Positions 3,601-60,230 of a stretch of 64,000 nt of DNA are shown piece after piece. Below the pieces are notes generated by a model, which was given only the letters and a program-made list of their open reading frames with translations, was not told where the DNA came from and ran no database searches. Made by a program: the position numbers and the translations under genes. Numbering within the stretch: position 1 is the stretch's first letter; the number at the start of each line of letters is the position of its first letter. Origin of the DNA: an uncultured Planctomycetaceae bacterium. GTDB taxonomy: Bacteria; Planctomycetota; Planctomycetia; Planctomycetales; Planctomycetaceae. The stretch lies in assembly GCA_903924405.1 (NCBI GenBank), contig CAIYBH010000471.1, forward strand, positions 152 to 64,151, written 5' to 3'.

Positions 3601-6600
3601 GGTTAATGATTTGGCTGTCTTGATCAAACGTGACGTAGACACTCTTCTTCCCGGTAATTTTCTTAAGTGCAGCGATCAGCCTGTCGCGGTTCATGTCATG
3701 CTGGTTTTGCGCCCACCTGATCGCTGCAGATTTCCCTCCGTAGCTTAGTGAGTACTGGCCGCTGGCGGTCGCGCCGGCCGAAATAGTGATACTGTTCAGA
3801 GTACCGGCAGCCATCCTGCCTGCCGTAACTTCACTCACCGTTGCTGTGAGTTTCGGCGTCGGCGGAGTCTGTGTGGTCACTGTGATCTGCTGACGTTCGC
3901 TGGATGCACCAGCTCCCCTCGTCGCTTCTGTCACTGAAGTTGTGACCGTCGGTTTTGTCTGAGCCGGCTTATCAATTGTTAGCTGTCGAAGTACGCTGGT
4001 GCTGGTGTAACCATCGACGGTTTCTGTGACTAATGCCGAGACGGACGGCGTGGAAGTACTCGGCTTGTTAATCACAATTTCCTGAACGTGGCTACTGCCT
4101 GGTGCTCCGTTGGAAATCTGAGTCACCGTCGTGCGGATCGTTGGTTCCGGGATTTGCGACGGGTTGATTGTGATGGACTGCACTTCACTGACGCCGACTT
4201 TGGCCGCTGTCAGTTGCGAGACCGTGACCGAACCTGAGGAGTTGGCGGGTGTCGACACCGTCAGTCCGGTCACATTGGTGCCGGCGAGTGTGCCCTGAAA
4301 TTCAATCGTGAAGCCCTTTGAACGTGATCCAGTGACGGCCACGTTGCCGGCTCCTATGCCTTGCATTCCCTCCAGCGCTGTTGTGATTTTCGTGCGGATG
4401 GCAGCATCGCTGTTGGACCGGGAGATGGTCGCTGTTCCCGTGGCTGACTGATAAGTGAACGTCAGGTCACCAACCGTATCGTTCGCAATCTGCAGACTGT
4501 ACTGCGTGTTGGACGACGAGGCCGGCACACCGGAATCAGAGACTGTCACGCCCCTGTTGATCGCGACAGTGATATCCGTTCCGGAAGCCTCAAAGTCCGA
4601 ACTGCCGAGAAATTCTGCGAGGCCTGCCGTGGCCTGCAGCGTGGTCCATTTTCGTGTGGGTGTTTTTCGATCGGTGATTATCGCCAGACCAAAGTCGGCA
4701 TCCTGCAGACTTAACCCAACGGCGTCTTCATTGGTTGCAGGCCCGTTGTTTCCGGCAAACGCACTGATGTTTGTGCCGCCAAGTGTCAACAGGTCAGCAT
4801 CAACTGTCGTTTCGTCGGACAGCGTCACTGTTTCCCGACGTTTTTCGACGGCAAAACTTCCGGAAACTGTGAAGAAGTCCGAAACGTTCACATCCAGTGT
4901 CCCGGAAGCCCTCAAAAGCGGTCCGAGATCCCCGTCCAGATCGAGGGTGAGAGACTCGGTGGAGCTCGTTCTGACGGTCAGGGGCTGTGATTTGTAGTCA
5001 ACCACCAGTACATCCACTGTGTCCGCACGATTAATCTGTACACTCAGGTCTGTGGCTTCGATCGTGAGTCCCGTAACCCCCACGATGGCAACACTGCCCA
5101 CGCTGGCCTGCAATGTGGTCCATTTTCTGGCGGTGTTCTGTTTGTCAGTCGCCATCGCCACGGCAAACTCAGTATCTGTCAACAACAGTCCGGTCGCCTG
5201 TGGTGTGTCATAATGCACGCCCGCGAAGGCGTTGATGCCTGTGCCGCCAATCGTCAACAGGTCGACGTCGACAGAGCTTTCGTCAGACAGCGTCAGCGTT
5301 TCGGACGATTTGGTGATGGCAAGACTGCCTGTGACGTAAAAGAAGTCACCCACGCCAAGAGTCAGTGTACCGGCTGCTTCAAGAAGCTGTCCGCGCGAAC
5401 CGTCAAAGTCGATGGTGATGGTGGAGGCAACACCGTCACTGTCTTTTCCCGTTTCCACAGAGAGAAAACTGTCGGAAAAGTCGATCACGTCACCCTGGAC
5501 GTCAGCGCGATTGACTGCCAGCGACAGATCTGTGGCAGAAAGTGTCAAGTCATTGACCCCGACCAGCTCAACGCTGCCGGCGGACGCTGTCAGGGCAGTC
5601 CAGCGGCGCGTTGGGTCCGTCTTTGATGTTGCCAGCGCGAGACCAAACTCGACGTCAGACAAGGCCAGCCCCTGGCGGTCACTGCTGTTGCCGTTGACTC
5701 CCGCGAACGCGTTGACGTTGGTCGCTCCAATGGTCAGCAGGTCGACATCCAGACTTGTGCTGTCCGTATCTGCCAGCGTGACCTGGGTTTCTGATTTGCT
5801 GACAGCAAATGACCCGTTGAGCAGGACAAAACCGAACAGATCAATATCGAATGTCGCAGACGCGGTAAGAACCGGCCCGTCCGCCGCATCAAAGTCGAGA
5901 GTCATTGACGAGTCTGGCCCGGTGGCGACAAGCAGCGGCTGGTCACTGAAATTGATCAGGTGCCCTGCTGAATCCGGTTGATTGAGTGCGACATTCAGAT
6001 CGGTTGCGGACACCGTCAGGCCGTCAACTCCGACAAAGCTGACGCTTTCTGCCGTAGCCTTGGCCGCGATCCAGTGTTGACTTCTGTCTGTGCTGGATGT
6101 GGCAACAACAATCGCAACATCCACGGAGGCCAACTGCAGTCCCATGGCGTTATCGGTACCACTGTTGACACCAGCAAACCCGGAAACATCGGCTGCACCA
6201 AACGTCAGCAGTTCCACATCCGTGGCCTGAGTGTCCTGATCCAGCGTCACGGATCCCGTCGTTTTACTGATCGCTATACCGCCTTCTACCTGCAGGAAAC
6301 CCGACACCGTCAGACTTAGTGTGCCGGAAGCTTTGAGCAATTCGCCGTTGTAGTCGAGCACAACCGGCGAGTCCCCGCCTGTCGGGATTGAGAGATTGTC
6401 CGACGAAAAGTCAGCGACAGCCGTCGCCGGATTTCCATTAAGAGTTCCCCCGGCTTTATTGATAGCCACGGTAAGGTCTGTGCCGGTGGCAGTGATGTCC
6501 GCCACGCCCAGCAGACTGGCAGTTGCCGCACTCGCCATCGCAGCCGTCCACGTCCGCTGATCCTGGCCATTCTGGTCGTTCGAGGGCGAAGCGAGCATGA

Positions 6601-9564: not shown

Positions 9565-10792
9565 AAAAAAAGGTCCATCCGGGAATTGTGTGGATTTGGT
9601 ATGATTTCGTTTTTGGAGGGAGTCCCCAGGCAGGACCGAGAGCTGTGCCGGGAAATTCGCGGCTTGAAGGGTCGGTGGTCGGTGTCGAAGGGGATGCTGA
9701 ACCCGGAGCGGCAGCATGTGAATGCGACTATCCAGCATCCCTCCGGTACGAACTTTTGTTGTCCTGATTTTTCCGCAACGCTGCCCTGCTGCGATCATAA
9801 TGATGAGCGCCATTGGCGGGACCTTGACAGATTTCAGTGCAAGGCCTTCTTCACGCCCAGTATTCCACGAGTCCACTGTCCTGAGCAAGGTGTCAAACAG
9901 ATTCGAGTGCCCCGGGTCGAGAAAGGCAGCCGGTTCACAATTCTCTTTGAGCTATTTGCCATTCTGGTCCGGCTGGGACTCAAACAGTCAAAGGTGTAAT
10001 GAGCATCCTGCGGACGAAATGGGACCAGACGTGGTCGATCGTGGCACATGCGGTCGCGAGGGGCAATGTTCGCAATGAAACGCAGACTGTGGCTCGGCTG
10101 TGGGATCGACGAGAAGGCTTTTCTCAAGTGGAAAAACTACATCACGCTGCTGAATGATCCGGGCAACAGCACGGTCGAAGCAATCAGCGATGGAAATGAG
10201 TGCCGCGTATGTCAAAGCTGCGAAGCACGTCATTCTGCAGGCGGAAAAAAAATCGTGCATGGTCGATTTTACGTCACTCAGATAGCGACGAAGGCTGTGA
10301 CAAAGTAGGCCGCGGGCAGCCTCGCCAATGGATGACAGACGGCGATAATTCTCTGAGCAGAACAAAGTGCGTCTGGTTCACGAGCTTCGAGAATTTCTCT
10401 GGGAAACAGCAGGCGAGCTTCGATGCAGCTTATGACCTGCAGTTACAGACCGGAAAGGCATGGGATTACAAGGAAATGCTCTGCAATCTGTGGAGCCAAT
10501 CCAGTGCCGCGTGCGCGACGACTTACTTCAACAACTGGTACAAGCGAGTCGTTTACACAAAGTGTGAGCCGGTGCAGGACGTTGCGAGATTGATCAGGGA
10601 ACGCCTGAGGAATGTTGTGAGCTACTGCGCTCACTGCATAACCAACGCCGTAGCCAAAAAGGCGAACAGCCCAATCATGTCGATCAAACGCCGTGTCGGG
10701 GGCTTCAGAAACCGCCAAAACTTCAAAACGGCCATCTTCTGCGACTGCGGCGGTCTCAGCCTTGCCCCACCATAGAACCGGATGGATTTTTT
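9565..10792 (+). mobile_element. Decayed ISL3-like insertion sequence with candidate imperfect terminal inverted repeats
   Basis: Left: AAAAAAAGGTCCATCCGG (9565-9582). Right: CCGGATGGATTTTTT (10778-10792). They share an inverted 9-mer TCCATCCGG plus an A/T run and directly flank the transposase remnant. No target-site duplication identified. Confidence 0.4.
9586..10775 (+). pseudogene. ISL3-family transposase pseudogene (at least 3 frameshifts, internal deletion)
   Basis: Homology runs through different frames. (1) 9586-9999: IRGLKGRWSV...CCPDFSATLPCCDHNDERHWRDLDRFQCKAFFTPSIPRVHCPEQGVKQIRVPRVEKGSRFTILFELFAI, the zf-ISL3 region with the conserved VPW changed to VPR. (2) ~9999-10100: MSILRTKWDQTWSIVAHAVARG. 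(3) 10048-10308: LGCGIDEKAFLKWKNYITLLND...GRFYVTQIATKAV. (4) 10200-10775: ...SFENFSGKQQASFDAAYDLQLQTGKAWDYKEMLCNLW...ITNAVAKKANSPIMSIKRRVGGFRNRQNFKTAIFCDCGGLSLAPP, the typical ISL3 C-terminus. The segment between the DEK block and the D.FHV block is much shorter than in intact ISL3 enzymes. Confidence 0.75.
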
Positions 10793-26866: not shown

Positions 26867-27328
26867 ATGAAGTCGTTGTCTGTGGTTGCATTGATGCTGT
26901 GTGGTCTGGTCCTGGGCCAGGTAAACGGACAGGAAGCTGCTCCAGCCCCAACGCCGGTTCCTGAGCACGGAACGGTCGTGGAAGCTGCTCCGGAAGCACT
27001 GTTCGAGCATGTGAAGTACAAGGACCTGCACGAAATGGCACCATGTGCAGTTCCGCGCATCATCGCAGTGAATGATCCCTGCGCCTGCGACGAACCCTGT
27101 GACTGCTGCAAGAAGTCCTGCGGCTGTGAAAAGTCCTGCGGTTGCGAAAAGACCTGCTGTGCCTGCGAAAAGAAGGTCGTCTTCATCCAGATCTGCGTTC
27201 CTGAGTGCAGCTGCGAAGAAGAAGTGATCTGCCGCCGTGACGGCGACCGCGTTCGCTACGACTTCGGCAAGTACGCTGTTGACGTTCGCGTAAAGAAGGG
27301 CCACATCGAAGTTGACTACCAGGACTGA
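26867..27328 (+). CDS. Small secreted cysteine-rich (metallothionein-like CxC/CC cluster) protein
   Basis: The ATG at 26867 is preceded by AGAGG 6 nt upstream. Signal peptide MKSLSVVALMLCGLVLGQVNGQEA. Cys cluster: DPCACDEPCDCCKKSCGCEKSCGCEKTCCACEKKVVFIQICVPECSCEEEVIC. A strong terminator follows. The longer ORF from 26627 is unconvincing. Confidence 0.75.
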   Translation: MKSLSVVALMLCGLVLGQVNGQEAAPAPTPVPEHGTVVEAAPEALFEHVKYKDLHEMAPCAVPRIIAVNDPCACDEPCDCCKKSCGCEKSCGCEKTCCACEKKVVFIQICVPECSCEEEVICRRDGDRVRYDFGKYAVDVRVKKGHIEVDYQD

Positions 27329-54587: not shown

Positions 54588-55553
54588 GTGACCGTTCGCA
54601 GTTTCACCATCACCGAACAGACTGCTGGAGCTATTCTTTCCGCTCTGCGAAAACACGATACGACGCTCACGTGGTCGGCCGCTCGCTCCCTGCTGGCCGC
54701 ACGACGACTGGGAGTCAACGGCATCCTTGTCATCGATGAGGGCCGCCGAGTCCAGCCGGGCGATCAGCTGGACGTCCGTGCCACCGCATTTCCGCCGCCG
54801 CCGAGCGACAGTGACGTGCGGATTCTGTTTCTTGACCCCCACGTAGTTGTGGCGGAGAAGCCCTCTGGGATGCTGTCCGTGCGACATCCCGGCGATCAGG
54901 ACTGGCGACCGCAACGCCGCCAGCGACAGCCGTCTCTGGAAGAATCGCTGCAGCGGCTGATTGAAAAACGCGAACGCCGTACCGCCGCGCCGAACTTTGC
55001 CGAACTGCTGCCGGTGCACCGGATTGACCGTGAGACCAGCGGGATTCTGGTCTTTGCCCGCACGTCCGAGGCACAACAGGGGTTGATCACCCAGTTTGCA
55101 GCGCACCAGACACTTCGACGTTACCTCTGCGTCGTGCCCGGTCACCCGAAAGCCACCACGCTCCGGTCCTATCAGATTCGGGATCGCGGCGATGGCCTGC
55201 GTGGCAGCGGCAGCGAAGACCAACCCGGGCGACACATGATCACCCACATTCAGCCGCTCAGAGCCCCCGGGGGCTATACGGAACTGGAATGTCGGCTGGA
55301 AACTGGCCGAACGAACCAGATCCGCATACAGCTGGCCGAGATCGGCCATCCGTTGTGTGGTGACGTGAAATACCGGGGGCCCTATGGAGCCGCCCCGCTA
55401 CCGGACCACAGTCAAGCCCCGCGTCTCGCACTGCATGCCGCCGAGCTGGGATTTCGGCACCCGGTGACCGGGGTTGAGCACGCCTGGCAACGCCCCTGGC
55501 CCGGCGACATCCTGCGCTGGCTGGCCACCATTAAATCTTACAGGGCACCTTAG
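54588..55553 (+). CDS. RluA-family pseudouridine synthase with N-terminal S4-like domain
   Basis: LLPVHRIDRETSGILVFARTSEAQ (catalytic Asp block), GRTNQIRIQLAEIGHPLCGDVKY, LALHAAELGFRHPVTG. Confidence 0.9.
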   Translation: MTVRSFTITEQTAGAILSALRKHDTTLTWSAARSLLAARRLGVNGILVIDEGRRVQPGDQLDVRATAFPPPPSDSDVRILFLDPHVVVAEKPSGMLSVRHPGDQDWRPQRRQRQPSLEESLQRLIEKRERRTAAPNFAELLPVHRIDRETSGILVFARTSEAQQGLITQFAAHQTLRRYLCVVPGHPKATTLRSYQIRDRGDGLRGSGSEDQPGRHMITHIQPLRAPGGYTELECRLETGRTNQIRIQLAEIGHPLCGDVKYRGPYGAAPLPDHSQAPRLALHAAELGFRHPVTGVEHAWQRPWPGDILRWLATIKSYRAP

Positions 55554-55590: not shown

Positions 55591-55656
55591 TGGAATTGAT
55601 AGGGCAGATAGGACCGATAGGATACATCAGTCCCATCAGTCTCATCAGTCCCATCC
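55591..55656. repeat. 9-nt-periodic tandem array (7 units: nnnGATAGG x3, then nnnCATCAG x3-4)
   Basis: attgatagg gcagatagg accgatagg atacatcag tcccatcag tctcatcag tcccatcc. It abuts the stop codon (55657-55659) of the 4HB gene and is the reverse complement of units in the first half of the 56470-56636 array. Confidence 0.85.
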
Positions 55657-56268
55657 TCAGCCACTGGACCGTTTCCCACCATTCCTCGCGTGAAGGCGTG
55701 CACGCGTCATACGCTCCCGTAGCCCTCCTTCCTGCAGAAAATCCCGTTCCAGCCGCCGCAACTGCTGGTCCAGCAGGTAATTTGTCTGGTGAATCAGGCA
55801 GACCTGTATGTTGGCGACAATCTCTGCCGCACGAGTCCTGAAATACGGCTCAAATGCAGCACTGTCCACTCCGTCGCGTGCCCCCAGTCGCCGCACAAAC
55901 GTGGCTTGCTCGCTGTCCCGCCCCCACAGCGCGGCCTGATGCACCCGCAGATAGTCTCGATAGTCCTCGAGCAGCTCCTCAAGACTGGCGCGCGCCACAT
56001 TGGTCAGCTTGATTTCCATTTCCCGCGACGTGCCGCTGGCACGGCTGCCCTCCACAATATTCTGCTTGCCCGATCGAGCGGCCTGAACCATTTGATCGTG
56101 AGTCCGACTGCGGCGATCTATAAAACGCTCACAAAACCACACGGTTCCATCGTAGACAATCCTTGCTTTTTGAAACGACAGCAACTGTTCGTAACCACCA
56201 TGCGGCGGAATAAAGCCAGGTCCGCTCAAACTTGCCGACCGCTGATCACGACCTCCGCGCTCAGCCAT
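55657..56268 (-). CDS. Four-helix-bundle protein with suffix domain (23S rRNA intervening-sequence protein / Avd family)
   Basis: GGYEQLLSFQKARIVYDGTVWFCERFIDRRSRTHDQMVQAARSGKQNIVEGSRASGTSREMEIKLTNVARASLEELLEDYRDYLR...NYLLDQQLRRLERDFLQEGGLRERM matches the highly conserved core of this family. Confidence 0.88.
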   Translation of the reverse strand: MAERGGRDQRSASLSGPGFIPPHGGYEQLLSFQKARIVYDGTVWFCERFIDRRSRTHDQMVQAARSGKQNIVEGSRASGTSREMEIKLTNVARASLEELLEDYRDYLRVHQAALWGRDSEQATFVRRLGARDGVDSAAFEPYFRTRAAEIVANIQVCLIHQTNYLLDQQLRRLERDFLQEGGLRERMTRARLHARNGGKRSSG

Positions 56269-56469
56269 AACGACACCCTGCCGCCGAATGAGACAAAAAC
56301 CCAGAAAAAGATGCGATGCAAGTGATAATGAATATCATGCCGAAGTGCAATAAAAAATCGGCATATAAGGTGAAATAAAAGATAATAATTGGGCTGCGAT
56401 AGTTGGTATAACATCAGGGTAGATGCAAAAACACCCTGAAGTCTTGTCGGAAGTTCTGTTTTTACAGGG

Positions 56470-56636
56470 ATGCATGGGACTGATGGGACTGATGCGACCG
56501 ATGGGACTGATGCGACTGATGCGACCGATGTGACTGATGCGACCGATAGAACACATCCGTCGTATCCGTCACATCAGTCCCATATGTCTCATATTTCCCA
56601 TATGTCCCATCCAGTCCCATCCAGTCCCATCCTTCC
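56470..56636. repeat. 9-nt-periodic array organised as a ~165-nt imperfect palindrome
   Basis: About 9 units aCYGATGnG (atgcatggg actgatggg actgatgcg accgatggg actgatgcg actgatgcg accgatgtg actgatgcg accgataga). After a centre at ~56548-56554, about 9 units of the complementary type (acacatccg tcgtatccg tcacatcag tcccatatg tctcatatt tcccatatg tcccatcca gtcccatcca gtcccatcc). Around the centre, gatgcgaccgat pairs with atccgtcgtatc. Confidence 0.85.
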
Positions 56637-56826: not shown

Positions 56827-59361
56827 ATGAGCAGCGGAGCGTCAGCAATTCAGCGAACGGATTCAGTCTTCACCTGCGCTCCCGGGGTGTTCAACGAGGT
56901 CTATGAGGACGACGGAGCCCCGCGACCACACTGGCAGAAATTCCTGCAGGTGTTTCGCAACACCAGCCCTCAGGACTTTACACGCCGCCATCAGCAGGCG
57001 GACCGTATGCTGCGCGAGAATGGTGTCAACTACCATTCCGTCAATGCCGCCGGTGAAGGGGCTCGACCGTGGCGTCTGGATTTGTTTCCGCTTTTGACGT
57101 CAGCGGCTGAGTGGTCCGTGGCCGAGGCGGCCCTGGCACAGCGCGCCCATTTGCTGAATCTGCTGATCGCCGACATCTACGGCCCGCGTCGCCTGGTGGA
57201 TGAAGGACTGCTCCCTGCGGAATTGCTGTATGCCAATCCCGAGTTCCAGCGATCGTTCTGTGACCTTGGGCGCACAAATGATCGTCCCATGTTTCTGTAC
57301 GCCGCAGAACTGGCTCGCGCCGCCGATGGACGTTTCTTCGTCATGGCGGATCGCTCCGAGGCGCCGGCTGGTCCTGGTTTCGCTCTTGAAAATCGCATCG
57401 TCAGCTCCCGCTCTATTCCTTCGGCGTTCAAACAACTCCCCGTGGAACGTCTGGCCTCCTTCTTTGTGCGGCTGCAGAATGCTCTGCGAAAAAAAGCAGC
57501 ACGACCCACTGATCGCCCCGGAATTGTGCTGCTGACCAGCGGTCCGCGGCATCCGTACTATTTCGAAGATGTGTACCTCGCACGATATCTCGGCTACACC
57601 CTGGTCGAAGGAGGTGATCTGGCGGTGCGCTCCGACGTGCTGTACCTGAAAACACTGTCAGGCCTCGTGCCGGTGGACATTGTCCTTTCCCGATGTGCCG
57701 AATCGGGACTCGATCCCCTCGAAATGGGGGGCTATTCCGAACACGGTGTGCCAGGCATTCTGAATGCCATGCGCTGCGGCAACGTGACCATTGTCAATAC
57801 CCCTGGCTGCGGGATTGTGGGGGCCCCGGTGTTCATGCCGTTCCTGCCGCAGATCTGTCAGCGTCTGCTGGGCGAACCCCTGCTGTGGCCTTCCATCCCC
57901 ACCTGGTGGTGCGGCGATCCACATTCTTTCTCCGAGGTCCGTTCGCGTTTTGCTGACCTCGTGATCAAACCGGCGTTTCAGAAAAGCGGCGGTGAGGAAA
58001 TCATCATCAGTGACCTGGCAGCGCAACAGCGGGCGCAGTGGCTGGCACGCGTGCAGGCCGAACCATGGGCATGGGTCGCTCAGGAAAAAATCAGTCGCTC
58101 GGGAATCCCGATCTGGACCGATTCCGGGCTGCGCTGCGGACATGTCGCCATCCGGGCGTTTCTCGTGGAAGAAGAAGAACGCTGGCACCTGATGCCCGGA
58201 GGTTTGATTCGCATCGCGCCGGATACCGGGCCCATGCAGCTTTCCGTGGCCGCTGGTGACAGCAGCAAGGATCTGTGGGTCCTCGCGGATCGGCGAGTTG
58301 ACCCGGTGTCGTTGCTGACCCCGCAGGATCAGCCTGCAGAACTCAAACGCACCAGCGCTCTGTTTCCCAGTCGCGTGGCAGACAATCTGTTCTGGCTGGG
58401 CCGGTCCCTGGATCGCTGTGACTTTCTGGCACGCCTCGTCCGGGCTCTTGCCGAACGCCTGTCCGGTGAGGGCAGTGCCGAATTGCAGGACGTGCGATTT
58501 CTCGCCCGATTGCTCAGCGAACAGGGACAGCTGGAACCCGGATTTGTGCTGGAGGGCATGGAATCGCAACTCCCATCACTCGCCGAAGCGCTGCCGGCTG
58601 CGGTTTTCGATCCGGGGGAATATGGCGGTCTGGCTCCCACCGTGCAGGATCTGACCCGATTGGCCTCGTTAGTTCGGGACTGGATCAGCCCCGACACCTG
58701 GCACCGCATCAATGTGACGGCAGAAACATTCCGGACCGCGCCCAGTCGCGAATGGCGGGATCTGGCGGATGTGGTTTCTGCCACGGGTATTCTGATCGGA
58801 GACATCGCGTCGGTCAGTGGGTTGATTGCGGACGGGATGAACCGTGGGCCTTCCTGGCGTTTTCTGGAAATCGGACGCAGTATCGAACGAGCTGCAGCCA
58901 CAGCGCGCCTGCTGATCACGGCAGACCTGCGTAAGGGCAACGCCAGCCCGCTGCTGCTGAAGACTCTTGTCGAAGTGCTGGACGTGCGGATGACCTATCG
59001 ATTTCGCTACCGCGAAAATCTGCAGCGCAATGCGGTGCTGGATCTGGCCATCACGGACGAAACCAATCCTCGTTCACTCGCGTTTCAGCTGGAACGACTG
59101 ATCCAGCACACCGATCGTCTGCCAGGTTATACGACGCAGCCACTGCGTTCGCCGGAAATGCGACTGGTCATGGAAGCTGCACATGCCGTCCGCATGCTGA
59201 CCGCCGAAGATCTCGCTCAAACCGGTCTGAAAACCGTCATGACGGCGCTGCGAACCACTGAAGACGCCATGCTGAAACTCTCCGATGCACTGACCCATAA
59301 GTACCTCGTGCACTCAGGTGTGCCCAGGCAGTTCATGGAAAACACGGAAGGATCGACGTGA
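56827..59361 (+). CDS. Fused circularly permuted type-2 ATP-grasp + alpha-E domain protein
   Basis: N-terminal two thirds: FNEVYEDDGAPRPHWQKFLQVF...RMLRENGVNYH...PWRLDLFPLL...LLNLLIADIYGPRRLVDEGLLPAELLYANPEF...YLARYLGYTLVEGGDLAVRSDVLYLKTLSGLVPVDIVLSR (CP_ATPgrasp_2-like). C-terminal third: PSRVADNLFWLGRSLDRCDFLARLVRAL...SWRFLEIGRSIERAAATARLL (alpha-E-like). Confidence 0.85.
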   Translation: MSSGASAIQRTDSVFTCAPGVFNEVYEDDGAPRPHWQKFLQVFRNTSPQDFTRRHQQADRMLRENGVNYHSVNAAGEGARPWRLDLFPLLTSAAEWSVAEAALAQRAHLLNLLIADIYGPRRLVDEGLLPAELLYANPEFQRSFCDLGRTNDRPMFLYAAELARAADGRFFVMADRSEAPAGPGFALENRIVSSRSIPSAFKQLPVERLASFFVRLQNALRKKAARPTDRPGIVLLTSGPRHPYYFEDVYLARYLGYTLVEGGDLAVRSDVLYLKTLSGLVPVDIVLSRCAESGLDPLEMGGYSEHGVPGILNAMRCGNVTIVNTPGCGIVGAPVFMPFLPQICQRLLGEPLLWPSIPTWWCGDPHSFSEVRSRFADLVIKPAFQKSGGEEIIISDLAAQQRAQWLARVQAEPWAWVAQEKISRSGIPIWTDSGLRCGHVAIRAFLVEEEERWHLMPGGLIRIAPDTGPMQLSVAAGDSSKDLWVLADRRVDPVSLLTPQDQPAELKRTSALFPSRVADNLFWLGRSLDRCDFLARLVRALAERLSGEGSAELQDVRFLARLLSEQGQLEPGFVLEGMESQLPSLAEALPAAVFDPGEYGGLAPTVQDLTRLASLVRDWISPDTWHRINVTAETFRTAPSREWRDLADVVSATGILIGDIASVSGLIADGMNRGPSWRFLEIGRSIERAAATARLLITADLRKGNASPLLLKTLVEVLDVRMTYRFRYRENLQRNAVLDLAITDETNPRSLAFQLERLIQHTDRLPGYTTQPLRSPEMRLVMEAAHAVRMLTAEDLAQTGLKTVMTALRTTEDAMLKLSDALTHKYLVHSGVPRQFMENTEGST

Positions 59362-60230
59362 AATACAAGGTCACGCATCGCACCCGCTACACCTGTCAGG
59401 ACCAGGTCTCGGTCGGTCACAATCAGGCATGGCTGGAATTTCGCTCAACGGACCACCAGCAGGTGGAATCTTTCGCGCTGATGATCACCCCCGAACCTTC
59501 CGTCCGCACCCGGCGATTAGATGCCTTTCGCAATCCTGTTCAGATGTTTTCCTTCAATGAAGGCTACCAGTTGCTGGATGTCACGGCCACCACTCTGGTC
59601 ACCGTCCGGCCTCGTGAAATTTCTGCCGCCGGTCGACTGCGCACGTTGCAGGAAGGCCTGGCGATGCTTCGAAATCCGGAGGAACGTCAGCGCAATGAGG
59701 CACTCGAATTCCGCTTTGCCTCCCCCAGGATTCAATGGACTCCGGAGATTCGGGCCTACGCCGAACGTTCCCTCGCAGTCGACCGACCACTCCTGCAAAG
59801 CGTTCTTGAGCTGACACACCGACTTCACCATGACTTTGCGTACGACAATCGCGCTACCACTGTCAATACACCGATCACTGACGTGTTTCGCCTGAAACGC
59901 GGTGTCTGCCAGGACTTCGCTCATCTGCAGATTGCCATGCTCAGAGCTGTCGGAATCCCCTGTCGCTACGTCAGCGGCTACCTGCGCACCATCCCTCCCC
60001 CTGGCCAGCCGCGTCTGGTCGGCGCCGATGCCTCACACGCATGGCTATCCGTCTATCTGGGTGGCGGGGAATGGGTGGATGTGGACCCCACAAACAATCA
60101 GATCTGTGCCCGGGACCACATCACTCTGGCCTGGGGCCGAGATTACGGCGATGTGCCCCCGCTGACGGGTGTGTTTATGGGTGGTGGACAGCATCAGCTG
60201 TCAGTCAGTGTGGATGTACAACCACTGTAA
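59358..60230 (+). CDS. Transglutaminase-family protein (Bact_transglu_N + transglutaminase core)
   Basis: MKYKVTHRTRYTCQDQVSVGHN (N-domain). RGVCQDFAHLQIAMLRAVGIPCRYVSGYL...DASHAWLSVYLGGGEWVDVDPTN (Cys-His-Asp core). The GTG start overlaps the upstream stop (GTGA). Confidence 0.9.
   Translation: MKYKVTHRTRYTCQDQVSVGHNQAWLEFRSTDHQQVESFALMITPEPSVRTRRLDAFRNPVQMFSFNEGYQLLDVTATTLVTVRPREISAAGRLRTLQEGLAMLRNPEERQRNEALEFRFASPRIQWTPEIRAYAERSLAVDRPLLQSVLELTHRLHHDFAYDNRATTVNTPITDVFRLKRGVCQDFAHLQIAMLRAVGIPCRYVSGYLRTIPPPGQPRLVGADASHAWLSVYLGGGEWVDVDPTNNQICARDHITLAWGRDYGDVPPLTGVFMGGGQHQLSVSVDVQPL

What the first reader, a model, noticed from the sequence alone, without database searches (positions are those of the whole stretch)
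55591..56636. Four-helix-bundle (23S-IVS/Avd family) gene enclosed by 9-nt-periodic inverted repeat arrays: an IVS-like or mobile cassette outside rRNA
The 4HB gene (55657-56268, minus) is inserted between two housekeeping-type plus-strand genes. Its 3' side abuts seven 9-nt units (55591-55656). On its 5' side, beyond an AT-rich spacer, lies a ~165-nt array (56470-56636). The first half of that array (aCYGATGnG units) is the reverse complement of the left array. Its second half repeats the left-array orientation, so the right array is itself a long imperfect palindrome. The ORF is thus bracketed by inverted repeats able to form a long-range stem. An 11-nt direct repeat AGTCCCATCCT (55647-55657 and 56623-56633) delimits a 976-bp unit. 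The founding members of this family are encoded inside 23S rRNA intervening sequences, closed by a stem that RNase III excises. The same stem-plus-ORF geometry at a non-rRNA locus, built from strictly 9-nt-phased repeats, suggests a self-contained mobile or processed RNA element. I do not know it to be described.
Basis: partly seen in the sequence, partly recalled or inferred. Interest (0 to 1): 0.65.

Follow-up and report, generated by a model that had tools for sequence, protein, structure and literature searches.

The report
Helical-bundle gene framed by nine-base repeats
A small, very conserved four-helix-bundle gene sits between hypervariable arrays of 9-base repeats, and the same gene-plus-repeat pairing recurs in bacteria of many phyla, so this looks like an undescribed, horizontally spreading protein-and-repeat unit, not a chance feature of one locus.

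Summary
The gene at 55657-56268 (-) is a "four helix bundle suffix" protein (TIGR04258, Avd / 23S-IVS-protein superfamily). It lies between a 58-nt and a 167-nt array of 9-nt units. Each array folds into its own hairpin (z -4.0 and -9.8 against shuffles).

The pairing is general. In 80 homologous loci from more than 10 phyla, the repeat motif is about 25-30x enriched in the 100 nt on either side of the gene, and only lag 9 shows periodicity. A distant Prevotella-type subfamily also carries 9-nt arrays, but with a different motif. Most relatives hold three repeat units inside a coding loop, kept by synonymous-site constraint (p ~1e-19).

Unit number differs between assemblies of the same locus. 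The gene occurs in unrelated contexts (11 of 80 between hsdM and hsdS), often with flanking direct repeats. Its similarity ranking does not follow taxonomy.

The arrays are not exclusive to the gene: 118 of 120 arrays found by pattern search stand alone. A long-range stem enclosing the ORF is possible here but is not conserved across the family.

My best reading is a horizontally spread cassette whose protein recognises the nonamer arrays. IVS-type RNA processing remains untested. I found no description in the searchable literature.

The parts
55598..55655 (.). Array on the gene's 3' side. Six and a half 9-nt units form a small palindrome (3x GATAGGNNN, then 3.5x CATCAGTCY). It starts one base after the gene's stop codon and 45 nt after the RluA stop.
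   Evidence: Hairpin MFE is -30.1 against -18.8 +/- 2.8 for shuffles, z -4.0. The array is identical in five independent assemblies.
55657..56268 (-). Four-helix-bundle 'suffix' gene, 203 aa. It has a disordered N-terminus, a PPHGGY motif, the family motif RSGKQNIxEG, and a basic C-terminal suffix GGLRERMTRARL.
   Evidence: TIGR04258 E 1.9e-22 (78.9 bits, cutoff 40). TIGR02436 26.8 bits (cutoff 24). PF05635 23.7 bits, below the cutoff of 33.8. AF2 pLDDT 82. Best-probability fold match is 2gsc_B (Xcc0516), prob 0.97. More than 8000 homologues; 423 clusters at 50% identity reach E<=1e-30.
55834..55848 (-). Degenerate remnant (CCGTATTTCAGGACT) of the in-frame nonamer element. In most relatives this element reads GTCCTATGAGTCCTATAGGACCTAT and encodes SYESYRTY in a loop.
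   Evidence: Only the AGGAC core and the rare AGG codon survive in the window.
56269..56469 (-). AT-rich leader (40% G+C against 58% for the window) between the upstream array and the start codon. It presumably holds the promoter and 5' UTR and is partly conserved in the 89%-identical relative L086.
   Evidence: No sigma-70-type consensus was found on the minus strand.
56470..56636 (.). Array on the gene's 5' side, a 167-nt imperfect palindrome. Eight ATGNGACYG units occupy 56474-56545, followed by the turn, then NNGTCNCAT-type units, ending in 10-nt units at 56604-56632.
   Evidence: Hairpin MFE is -105.0 against -60.7 +/- 4.5, z -9.8. Unit number and order differ between assemblies of the same population: 27 nt are missing in L081, 10 nt are missing in L082, and L083 has at least 13 units.
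55646..55657 (+). First copy of the 12-nt direct repeat CAGTCCCATCCT. The second copy is at 56622-56633. Each copy lies at the end of its array and is part of it, so the pair is not an independent target-site duplication.
   Evidence: (D4).

Best explanation
The locus is one copy of a two-part unit that recurs across bacterial phyla. The first part is a small four-helix-bundle 'suffix' gene. The second part is arrays of 9-nt repeats placed directly before and after it. Most relatives also carry three in-frame units inside a coding loop.

What is shown: the gene-array association, the conserved 9-nt period, the motif changing with the protein subfamily, rapid change in unit number, hairpin potential, and many unrelated insertion contexts.

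What is inferred: the protein is an oligomeric nucleic-acid-binding protein, and the nonamer units are its recognition sites, working like iterons. Sites around and inside its own gene would give autoregulation or cis-packaging. Free-standing arrays elsewhere in the genome would be further sites. The gene plus its arrays moves horizontally as a cassette, probably by recombination within the arrays or within short flanking homologies. The arrays grow and shrink by slippage. Whether recognition happens on double-stranded DNA or on the folded RNA or single-stranded hairpins is open.
For: 1. Motif density is 1.0-1.2 per 100 nt in the first 100 nt on each side of the gene, against 0.04 further away. 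43 of 75 loci have at least 3 hits within 300 nt on at least one side.
2. A motif-agnostic test gives 30 of 80 loci with at least 19 of 27 matches at lag 9 near the gene, against 0-2 loci for lags 5-14 and 3 of 77 far controls.
3. The Prevotella-type subfamily (41-44% identity) also has 9-nt arrays but with CTAG-type units. Bacteroidales loci carrying the PVC-type protein (the window's subfamily, GTCCCAT/ATGGGAC-type motif) have GTCCTATAGGAC. The motif therefore follows the protein, not the host.
4. The internal element shows synonymous constraint. Tyr codons are TAT:TAC 100:12 in the loop against 115:157 elsewhere (p 8e-19). The Arg codon AGG is 28 of 51 in the loop against 61 of 1024 elsewhere (p 3e-19).
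5. Many units contain 6-12-nt palindromes at 9-nt spacing (GTCCTATAGGAC, TCTAGA, ACTAGT), as expected for sites of a symmetric oligomer.
6. Precedent exists: the alpha-helical KfrA represses its own promoter through five 9-nt repeats in both orientations (PMC7783346).
7. Cassette behaviour:
   - Similarity to the window's protein does not follow taxonomy. Acidobacteria and Deltaproteobacteria score 71-72%, while Pirellula, Schlesneria and Phycisphaerae score 59-68%.
   - 11 of 80 loci lie between hsdM and hsdS, and L002 has a duplicated 66-nt hsdM 3' end.
   - 15 of the 20 loci with upstream/downstream flank similarity have direct repeats.
   - Near-identical cassettes lie beside different remnants of a decayed hsdM gene (L226 vs L228).
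8. Unit number varies between assemblies of one population.
Against: - No binding data exist. The protein has no recognised DNA-binding motif, and its only fold relatives are proteins of unknown function plus Avd.
- 13 of 74 relatives show neither flanking nor internal motif clusters, and internal and flanking motifs are uncorrelated.
- 118 of 120 arrays found by pattern search have no such gene nearby, and I could not test whether those genomes encode the protein elsewhere.
- The motif-protein covariation rests on two subfamilies only. It would also arise if gene and arrays are merely co-transferred.
- The window's own gene has lost the internal element.
- Close relatives of the host lack the cassette but also lack the downstream synteny, so no clean empty site was seen. 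No excision joint was seen either.
Confidence: 0.45

Rival explanations
1. The arrays are autonomous REP-like or minisatellite elements, and the gene has no specific relation to them beyond landing there. The nonamer arrays would be dispersed, recombinogenic, hairpin-forming intergenic repeats. A cassette flanked by such repeats integrates or excises by recombination in them (Campbell-type). That produces the flanking direct repeats and leaves solo arrays behind.
For: - 118 of 120 arrays are free-standing with no recurrent neighbouring gene family.
- Array k-mers are 3-30x (window population) and about 8-11x (Chlorobium locus) deeper than the flanks, and contigs lead on to other loci.
- Free-standing arrays avoid divergent intergenic regions (tandem 38, convergent 18, divergent 5), like REP elements at 3' ends.
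- Whole modules are duplicated on both sides of the gene in L065, L020 and L226.
Against: - This does not explain why the same motif occurs in arrays of hosts from many phyla.
- It does not explain why the motif switches with the protein subfamily inside Bacteroidales.
- It does not explain why a three-unit copy is held inside the coding sequence against codon preference.
- No other gene family is enriched next to arrays.
Confidence: 0.25
2. The arrays pair across the ORF, or fold locally into long double-stranded RNA. RNase III cuts them, freeing the 4HB mRNA from read-through transcripts and insulating the host genes, as in 23S rRNA intervening sequences.
For: - The MFE of the full minus-strand RNA contains 59 long-range pairs and is 13 kcal/mol better than separate folds.
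- Local stems of about 80 and 25 imperfect pairs are long enough to be RNase III substrates.
- L223-L225 have inverted arms across the gene.
- The family's founders lie in rRNA intervening sequences, and members are inserted inside cas and R-M operons (PMC3936711).
- Short array unitigs stand at depth 28-80 in three metatranscriptomes while the flanks read 0, and at depth 59 in X32.
Against: - Only 14 of 75 loci have arrays on both sides.
- About two thirds of free-standing arrays have a single orientation.
- Palindromic units and the 9-nt period are not needed for an RNase III stem.
- The window's AT-rich leader lies downstream of the upstream array, so the mRNA may not contain that array.
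- No RNA ends were observed.
Confidence: 0.15
3. This is a contingency (phase-variable) locus. The arrays would be simple-sequence tracts whose unit number tunes expression of the 4HB gene or of its neighbours.
For: Unit number differs between otherwise identical assemblies. The arrays lie next to the leader and at operon junctions such as hsdM/hsdS, where repeat-driven switching is known for R-M systems (PMC7383803).
Against: - A 9-nt unit cannot frameshift.
- Arrays occur on the 3' side as often as on the 5' side.
- This does not explain the conserved motif, the palindromes or the internal element.
Confidence: 0.1
4. The arrays are made by a reverse transcriptase. An Avd-like helper would work with a trans-encoded RT that adds tandem 9-nt cDNA repeats, as DRT10 does.
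For: Avd, a homologue, is an RT cofactor. DRT10 makes tandem 9-nt repeats (bioRxiv 10.1101/2025.10.16.682844).
Against: Neighbour clustering found no gene family recurrent across the 80 loci apart from the type I R-M genes (hsdM/S/R) in a minority and a few clusters limited to 5-6 loci, and the gene calls around the window's locus show no RT domain. There is no template RNA and no evidence that cDNA integrates.
Confidence: 0.03

Closest known systems
23S rRNA intervening-sequence proteins (PF05635 / TIGR02436; Xcc0516, PDB 2GSC; BT_0352, PDB 2RLD)
   Same: Four-helix-bundle fold and the R-S-x3-N-x2-E-G motif. A small ORF that sits as an 'intervening' gene inside other transcription units. Inverted repeats lie around the ORF.
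   Different: It is not in an rRNA gene. It carries an extra N-terminal PPHGGY segment, two extra helices and the TIGR04258 suffix. The repeats are tandem nonamers, mostly local hairpins or single-orientation arrays, not one closing stem. Excision is untested.
Avd of diversity-generating retroelements
   Same: Same superfamily. Basic surface and nucleic-acid binding.
   Different: No RT domain appears in the gene calls around the window's locus and none recurs near the 80 relatives. No template or variable repeat pair was seen, though TR/VR pairs were not specifically searched for.
REP elements and their RAYT transposase (REPtron)
   Same: Dispersed palindromic intergenic repeats, mostly downstream of genes. 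One gene family is characteristically flanked by them. The association is asymmetric: many solo repeats and few genes.
   Different: The protein is not an HUH nuclease and has no known catalytic motif. The repeats are tandem 9-nt units of variable number. The same motif crosses phyla.
Iteron or heptad operators bound by small repressors (KfrA of RA3 with five 9-nt repeats; omega of pSM19035 with 7-bp heptads; MetJ metboxes)
   Same: Short units in tandem, in direct and inverted orientation, next to the regulator's own gene. KfrA is alpha-helical and its units are 9 nt.
   Different: Arrays here reach more than 15 units, lie on the 3' side and inside the ORF as well, are hypervariable, and also occur far from the gene. 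The protein has no recognised helix-turn-helix or ribbon-helix-helix motif.
Integron gene cassettes (ORF plus attC hairpin)
   Same: A single ORF with an adjacent imperfect palindrome of variable length. Direct repeats flank inserted units.
   Different: No integrase and no cassette array. One gene family only. The palindrome is built of nonamers.

Membership tests
Four helix bundle suffix proteins (TIGR04258) | C-terminal ~49-aa suffix domain scoring above the curated cutoff | tested here: met
   78.9 bits against a cutoff of 40, residues 148-196. Sources name the homologues this way.
Four helix bundle / 23S rRNA IVS protein superfamily (TIGR02436, PF05635) | Profile match above the curated cutoff, plus the four-helix fold | tested here: met
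   TIGR02436 scores 26.8 against 24. PF05635 scores only 23.7 against 33.8 for this member, but it is precomputed for most homologues. Fold match to 2gsc_B has prob 0.97 and TM 0.71 on the target; 2rld_A has prob 0.69.
23S rRNA intervening sequence (IVS) | Inserted in a 23S rRNA helix | tested here: not met
   No Rfam family, rRNA included, reaches its threshold anywhere in the window. The flanks are protein genes.
23S rRNA intervening sequence (IVS) | Terminal inverted repeats form a stem that encloses the ORF | tested here: inconclusive
   The stem is possible in this locus: 59 long-range pairs and a 13 kcal/mol gain. Each array also folds alone, and only 14 of 75 relatives have arrays on both sides.
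23S rRNA intervening sequence (IVS) | Excision by RNase III | not testable with these tools
   RNA runs are held only as contigs. They cover the gene at depth 2-3 and show no ends.
Diversity-generating retroelement (Avd as accessory) | Adjacent reverse transcriptase and a template/variable repeat pair | tested here: not met
   The genes within 10 kb are PhoH, 7TM-HD, RluA, ATP-grasp, transglutaminase, AspRS and NadA. No RT domain appears in those calls, and neighbour clustering of the 80 loci shows no RT family. TR/VR pairs were not specifically searched for.
REP / RAYT system | HUH (Y1) transposase flanked by REP hairpins | tested here: not met
   The protein is a helical bundle with no transposase family hit. 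Only the arrangement is analogous.
REP / RAYT system | Repeats dispersed in many copies in the same genome | tested here: inconclusive
   Array k-mer depth is 3-30x the flanks, with loose ends leading to other loci. These are metagenomes, though, and the 64-kb window holds only this one locus.
Known anti-phage defence or phage protein families | Match to a PADLOC or PHROGs model | tested here: not met
   No PADLOC or PHROGs hit for the window protein. The gene is absent from phage records and viral contigs.

The most novel reading that the evidence does not exclude
The 4HB-suffix protein is the trans-acting partner that recognises, and perhaps seeds or maintains, the nonamer arrays scattered through the genome. 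It would be a non-nuclease counterpart of the RAYT-REP relationship. The protein and its repeats would then form a self-propagating pair that crosses phylum boundaries and colonises operon junctions such as hsdM/hsdS.
Probability: 0.17. Interest if true: 0.9.

Novelty: new variant of a known kind. Interest (0 to 1): 0.72.

Why it matters
The Avd / IVS-protein superfamily is very large, yet outside diversity-generating retroelements no function is known for it. Here one subfamily is 60-78% identical across more than ten phyla and is tied to a concrete, testable nucleic-acid feature: nonamer arrays whose motif changes with the protein.

That gives a direct experimental handle, namely binding assays with defined oligonucleotides. 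It may also explain why these genes turn up as 'intervening' ORFs in rRNA, cas and R-M operons.

The arrays are a widespread class of hypervariable intergenic repeats that break metagenome assemblies. They could serve as strain markers. If the protein-repeat link is causal, this would be a new kind of selfish protein-plus-repeat element.

Tried and rejected
1. Presence or absence in relatives. Contigs with RluA at 77-78% identity keep PhoH-7TM-HD-RluA but carry different genes downstream, with no 4HB gene and no arrays. There is no clean empty site to compare.
2. Excision or circle joints in four DNA runs. None were seen. The cassette assembles as a separate ~878-nt unitig bounded by the arrays.
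3. Carriage on phages, plasmids or viral contigs. There is no phage hit, one hit on a 568-kb Prevotella replicon, and none in viral contigs.
4. Rfam. Only sub-threshold miRNA-hairpin noise on the arrays, and nothing at gathering score in the whole window.
5. PDB by sequence gave nothing meaningful. PADLOC and PHROGs gave nothing.
6. Other 4HB paralogues in the window. None by tblastn or HMM. Ten small ORFs scanned against NCBIfam gave none.
7. I first read the spacer between the two arms in L065 as promoter-like. The scan finds no sigma-70 consensus there, only an inner hairpin, so I withdrew that reading.
8. Adjacency to a pseudouridine synthase (window and L213) looked suggestive, but it occurs in 0 of the 80 other loci.
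9. Correlation between internal and flanking motifs: none.
10. Literature searches by family names, repeat sequences and 'nonamer repeat' terms found no description of this pairing.
Full report
**What is in the window.** Between an RluA-type pseudouridine synthase (54588-55553, +) and a circularly permuted ATP-grasp/Alpha-E gene (56827-59361, +) lies a 203-aa ORF on the minus strand (55657-56268). One base after its stop codon begins a 58-nt array (55598-55655). On the plus strand this array reads GATAGGGCA GATAGGACC GATAGGATA CATCAGTCC CATCAGTCT CATCAGTCC CATCC. Upstream of the gene lies a 201-nt leader of 40% G+C, against 58% for the window. Beyond the leader lies a 167-nt array (56470-56636). 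It has eight ATGNGACYG units, a turn, and then units of the opposite orientation, the last three with a 10-nt period.

The direct repeat is in fact 12 nt, CAGTCCCATCCT. Two corrections apply. The left array is itself a palindrome, and the phasing is not strictly 9 nt. A two-unit 18-mer matches 13 times in the window against 0.07 expected, with all but one match here. No other 9-nt array exists in the 64 kb.

**The gene.** It matches TIGR04258, 'four helix bundle suffix domain' (78.9 bits, cutoff 40), and TIGR02436 (26.8 against 24). PF05635 (23S_rRNA_IVP) scores below its cutoff for this member but is recorded for most homologues. The AlphaFold model (pLDDT 82) is all-helical. Its most probable fold relatives are Xcc0516 (2GSC) and BT_0352 (2RLD), both members of the IVS-protein family. 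No solved structure is related by sequence.

The family is large. More than 8000 word-sharing homologues were found, and 423 clusters at 50% identity reach E<=1e-30. It is also unusually conserved, with 58-78% identity across Planctomycetota, Verrucomicrobiota, Lentisphaerae, Acidobacteriota, Desulfobacterota, Chlorobiota, Bacteroidota, Hydrogenedentota and Chloroflexota. The ranking does not follow taxonomy. Acidobacterial and deltaproteobacterial proteins (71-72%) are closer to this planctomycete protein than those of Pirellula, Schlesneria or Phycisphaerae (59-68%). That pattern points to horizontal spread. The gene is absent from phage records, viral contigs and true plasmids.

**Folding.** Each array is a strong hairpin on its own. 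The large one folds at -105.0 kcal/mol against -60.7 +/- 4.5 for dinucleotide shuffles (z -9.8). The small one folds at -30.1 against -18.8 +/- 2.8 (z -4.0). If the whole 1061-nt minus-strand RNA were made, the minimum-energy fold would use 59 pairs between the two arrays. That fold is 13 kcal/mol better than separate folding (-430.5 against -417.3). It competes with a local hairpin that would form first during transcription. It also requires a promoter upstream of the large array, and none was identified.

**Is the association general?** Yes. In 80 loci from species-representative genomes, a relaxed motif (G[TA]C[CT][CT]A[TC] and its complement) occurs 1.0-1.2 times per 100 nt in the first 100 nt on either side of the gene. 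Beyond 1.5 kb the rate is 0.04. 43 of 75 loci have at least 3 hits within 300 nt on one side, and 14 have them on both sides. Without assuming any motif, 30 of 80 loci show at least 19 of 27 matches at lag 9 next to the gene. Any other lag from 5 to 14 gives 0-2 loci, and far controls give 3 of 77.

A typical module is (ATGGGACNN)n, a loop or spacer, then (NNGTCCCAT)n. In some loci the whole module, spacer included, is repeated on both sides of the gene (L065, L020, L226).

**Motif follows the protein.** A distant subfamily from Prevotella and relatives (41-44% identical) is also framed by 9-nt arrays, but of different units: NCTAGTNNT, TCTAGANNN and TATAGTNAC. In L223-L225 the upstream array reads TCCTAGTTN and its complement lies downstream. 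Bacteroidales genomes that carry the PVC-type protein (the window's subfamily, GTCCCAT/ATGGGAC-type motif) instead have GTCCTATAGGAC directly after the stop codon. The conserved property is therefore the 9-nt period, and the motif tracks the protein subfamily, not the host. Only two subfamilies were compared.

**An element inside the gene.** In most PVC-type genes, the loop encoding '..SYESYRTY..' is written GTCCTATGAGTCCTATAGGACCTAT. That is three nonamer units including a 12-nt palindrome. Codon choice there departs sharply from the rest of the gene. Tyr is TAT:TAC 100:12 in the loop against 115:157 elsewhere (Fisher p 8e-19). Arg AGG is 28 of 51 in the loop against 61 of 1024 elsewhere (p 3e-19). 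This is selection, or continual conversion, at the nucleotide level. Some genes have expanded runs at this spot (L058, L059, L061, L076). Many database representatives split or end near residue 130. The window's gene keeps only a remnant, CCGTATTTCAGGACT at 55834-55848. Internal and flanking motifs are uncorrelated, and 61 of 74 loci have at least one of the two.

**Hypervariability.** The window's protein is encoded on at least 15 metagenome contigs with the same synteny. These are identical through gene, leader and small array but differ in the large array. 27 nt are missing in L081 and 10 nt in L082. L083 has at least 13 differently ordered units. Several contigs start or end inside an array. 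The same holds for Prevotella-type loci and for L226 against L227.

In four DNA runs the cassette is a separate ~878-nt unitig bounded by the arrays. Array k-mers are 3-30x deeper than the flanks, and loose ends lead to other loci. In a run holding the Chlorobium locus, the array stands at 373-521x against 46x for the gene. The arrays are therefore multi-copy.

**The reverse test.** Only 2 have a 4HB-suffix gene beside the array, and no other protein family recurs near the arrays. About two thirds of these free-standing arrays have a single orientation. Using naive ORF calls, they lie in tandem (38) or convergent (18) intergenic regions far more often than in divergent ones (5), which places them downstream of genes.

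The association is thus asymmetric. The gene nearly always has arrays, but most arrays have no gene. This is the logic of REP elements and their RAYT gene, or of a regulator and its regulon.

**Cassette behaviour.** 11 of 80 loci place the gene between hsdM and hsdS of type I restriction-modification operons. In L002 the 4HB start codon overlaps the hsdM stop. A 66-nt copy of the hsdM 3' end is repeated after the cassette, just before hsdS, and this looks like an insertion scar. 20 loci show similarity between their upstream and downstream flanks, and in 15 of them the repeats are direct. Near-identical cassettes (L226/L227 against L228) sit beside different remnants of a decayed hsdM gene. 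Published surveys note IVS-protein genes inside cas operons (PMC3936711). Close relatives of the window's host lack the cassette, but synteny also breaks there, so there is no clean empty site.

**RNA evidence.** One metatranscriptome covers part of the gene at depth 2-3. Three others contain only short array unitigs at depth 28-80, with nothing on the flanks. A wetland metatranscriptome shows the same pattern for the Chlorobium locus. Arrays of this type are therefore present in RNA. Strand, ends and locus of origin are unknown.

**Interpretation.** The gene-array pairing, its 9-nt period, its hypervariability and its cassette-like distribution are shown. How it works is inferred.

I favour the reading that the protein recognises the nonamer units (confidence about 0.45). 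The grounds are these:
- The motif switches with the protein subfamily.
- The same motif crosses host phyla together with a horizontally moving gene.
- A copy is held inside the coding sequence against codon preference.
- Many units are short palindromes at fixed spacing.
- An alpha-helical autoregulator with a 9-nt iteron operator is a known precedent (KfrA).

The main rival (0.25) is that the arrays are autonomous recombinogenic repeats and the cassette merely inserts into them. Phase variation (0.1) and RT-made repeats (0.03, compare DRT10) are minor alternatives. These readings are not all mutually exclusive.

**Novelty.** The protein family is catalogued (TIGR04258). I found no description of its nonamer arrays, of the internal element or of the hsdM/hsdS habit in the searchable literature, and no Rfam family covers the arrays. 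I file it as a new variant of a known kind: a dispersed repeat with an associated gene, or an iteron with its binding protein. It is not an IVS or a DGR component, because defining features of both were tested and not met.

Noticed in passing
L001, L002, L006, L027, L029, L031, L037, L049, L057, L072-L074 (gene at ~4001 in most): In 11 of 80 loci the 4HB-suffix gene sits between hsdM and hsdS of a type I R-M operon. In L002 its ATG overlaps the hsdM stop (ATGCCTGA), and 66 nt of the hsdM 3' end are duplicated after the cassette. Many family members, the window's included (ATGGCTGAG), start M-[PSA]-E, that is ATGNCTGA. This may be a relic of that overlap.
   Followed up: partly
window 56474-56543; L065 3924-3962: In estuary and wetland metatranscriptomes, short unitigs made only of array units stand at depth 28-80 (59 in X32), while the adjacent genes read 0-20. 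Array RNA seems to accumulate, or many loci add up. Strand and origin are unknown.
   Followed up: partly
window 54588-55553 and L213 1409-2302: In the window and in a Prevotella locus, the 4HB-suffix gene lies next to an RluA/RluD-type 23S rRNA pseudouridine synthase. None of the other 80 loci shows this, so it is probably coincidence.
   Followed up: yes
L007 ~3893-3990; L001 ~3842-4000: In some loci the upstream array lies inside the annotated ORF. There it reads as a Gly-X-Y-like N-terminal extension (MSERENGTDGKNGTDGTSGTKGTDG...; NRTKGTNRTKGTDGT...PSSQSHPSHS). Whether it is translated is unknown.
   Followed up: no
one search hit list (P0365, P0393, P0395, P0403 etc.): Many representative proteins of the family match only residues ~17-131, or match in two stretches split near residue 130. 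This is the position of the internal nonamer element. It suggests assembly breaks, frameshifts or insertions there.
   Followed up: no
window 9586-9996 and 10200-10772 (+): Two ORFs match the N- and C-terminal parts of an ISL3-family transposase. This looks like a broken insertion sequence.
   Followed up: no
L081 965-1687 (same population as the window, beyond NadA): An IS66-family transposase lies about 9 kb from the cassette on the ATP-grasp side.
   Followed up: no
window 27105-27172: An 18-nt tandem repeat with 3.6 copies (GCTGCGAAAAGTCCTGCG, TRF score 74), unrelated in sequence to the nonamer arrays.
   Followed up: no
window 56827-60230: The CP_ATPgrasp_2 + Alpha-E gene overlaps by 4 nt a transglutaminase-like gene. 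This is the known conserved ATP-grasp/Alpha-E/transglutaminase peptide-modification trio arrangement.
   Followed up: no
L154 7198-7571; L099 415-1159: Some free-standing arrays form higher-order repeats. L154 has a 374-nt block of alternating ATGGGAC and GTGAGAC units. L099 has array copies spaced exactly 360 nt apart.
   Followed up: no
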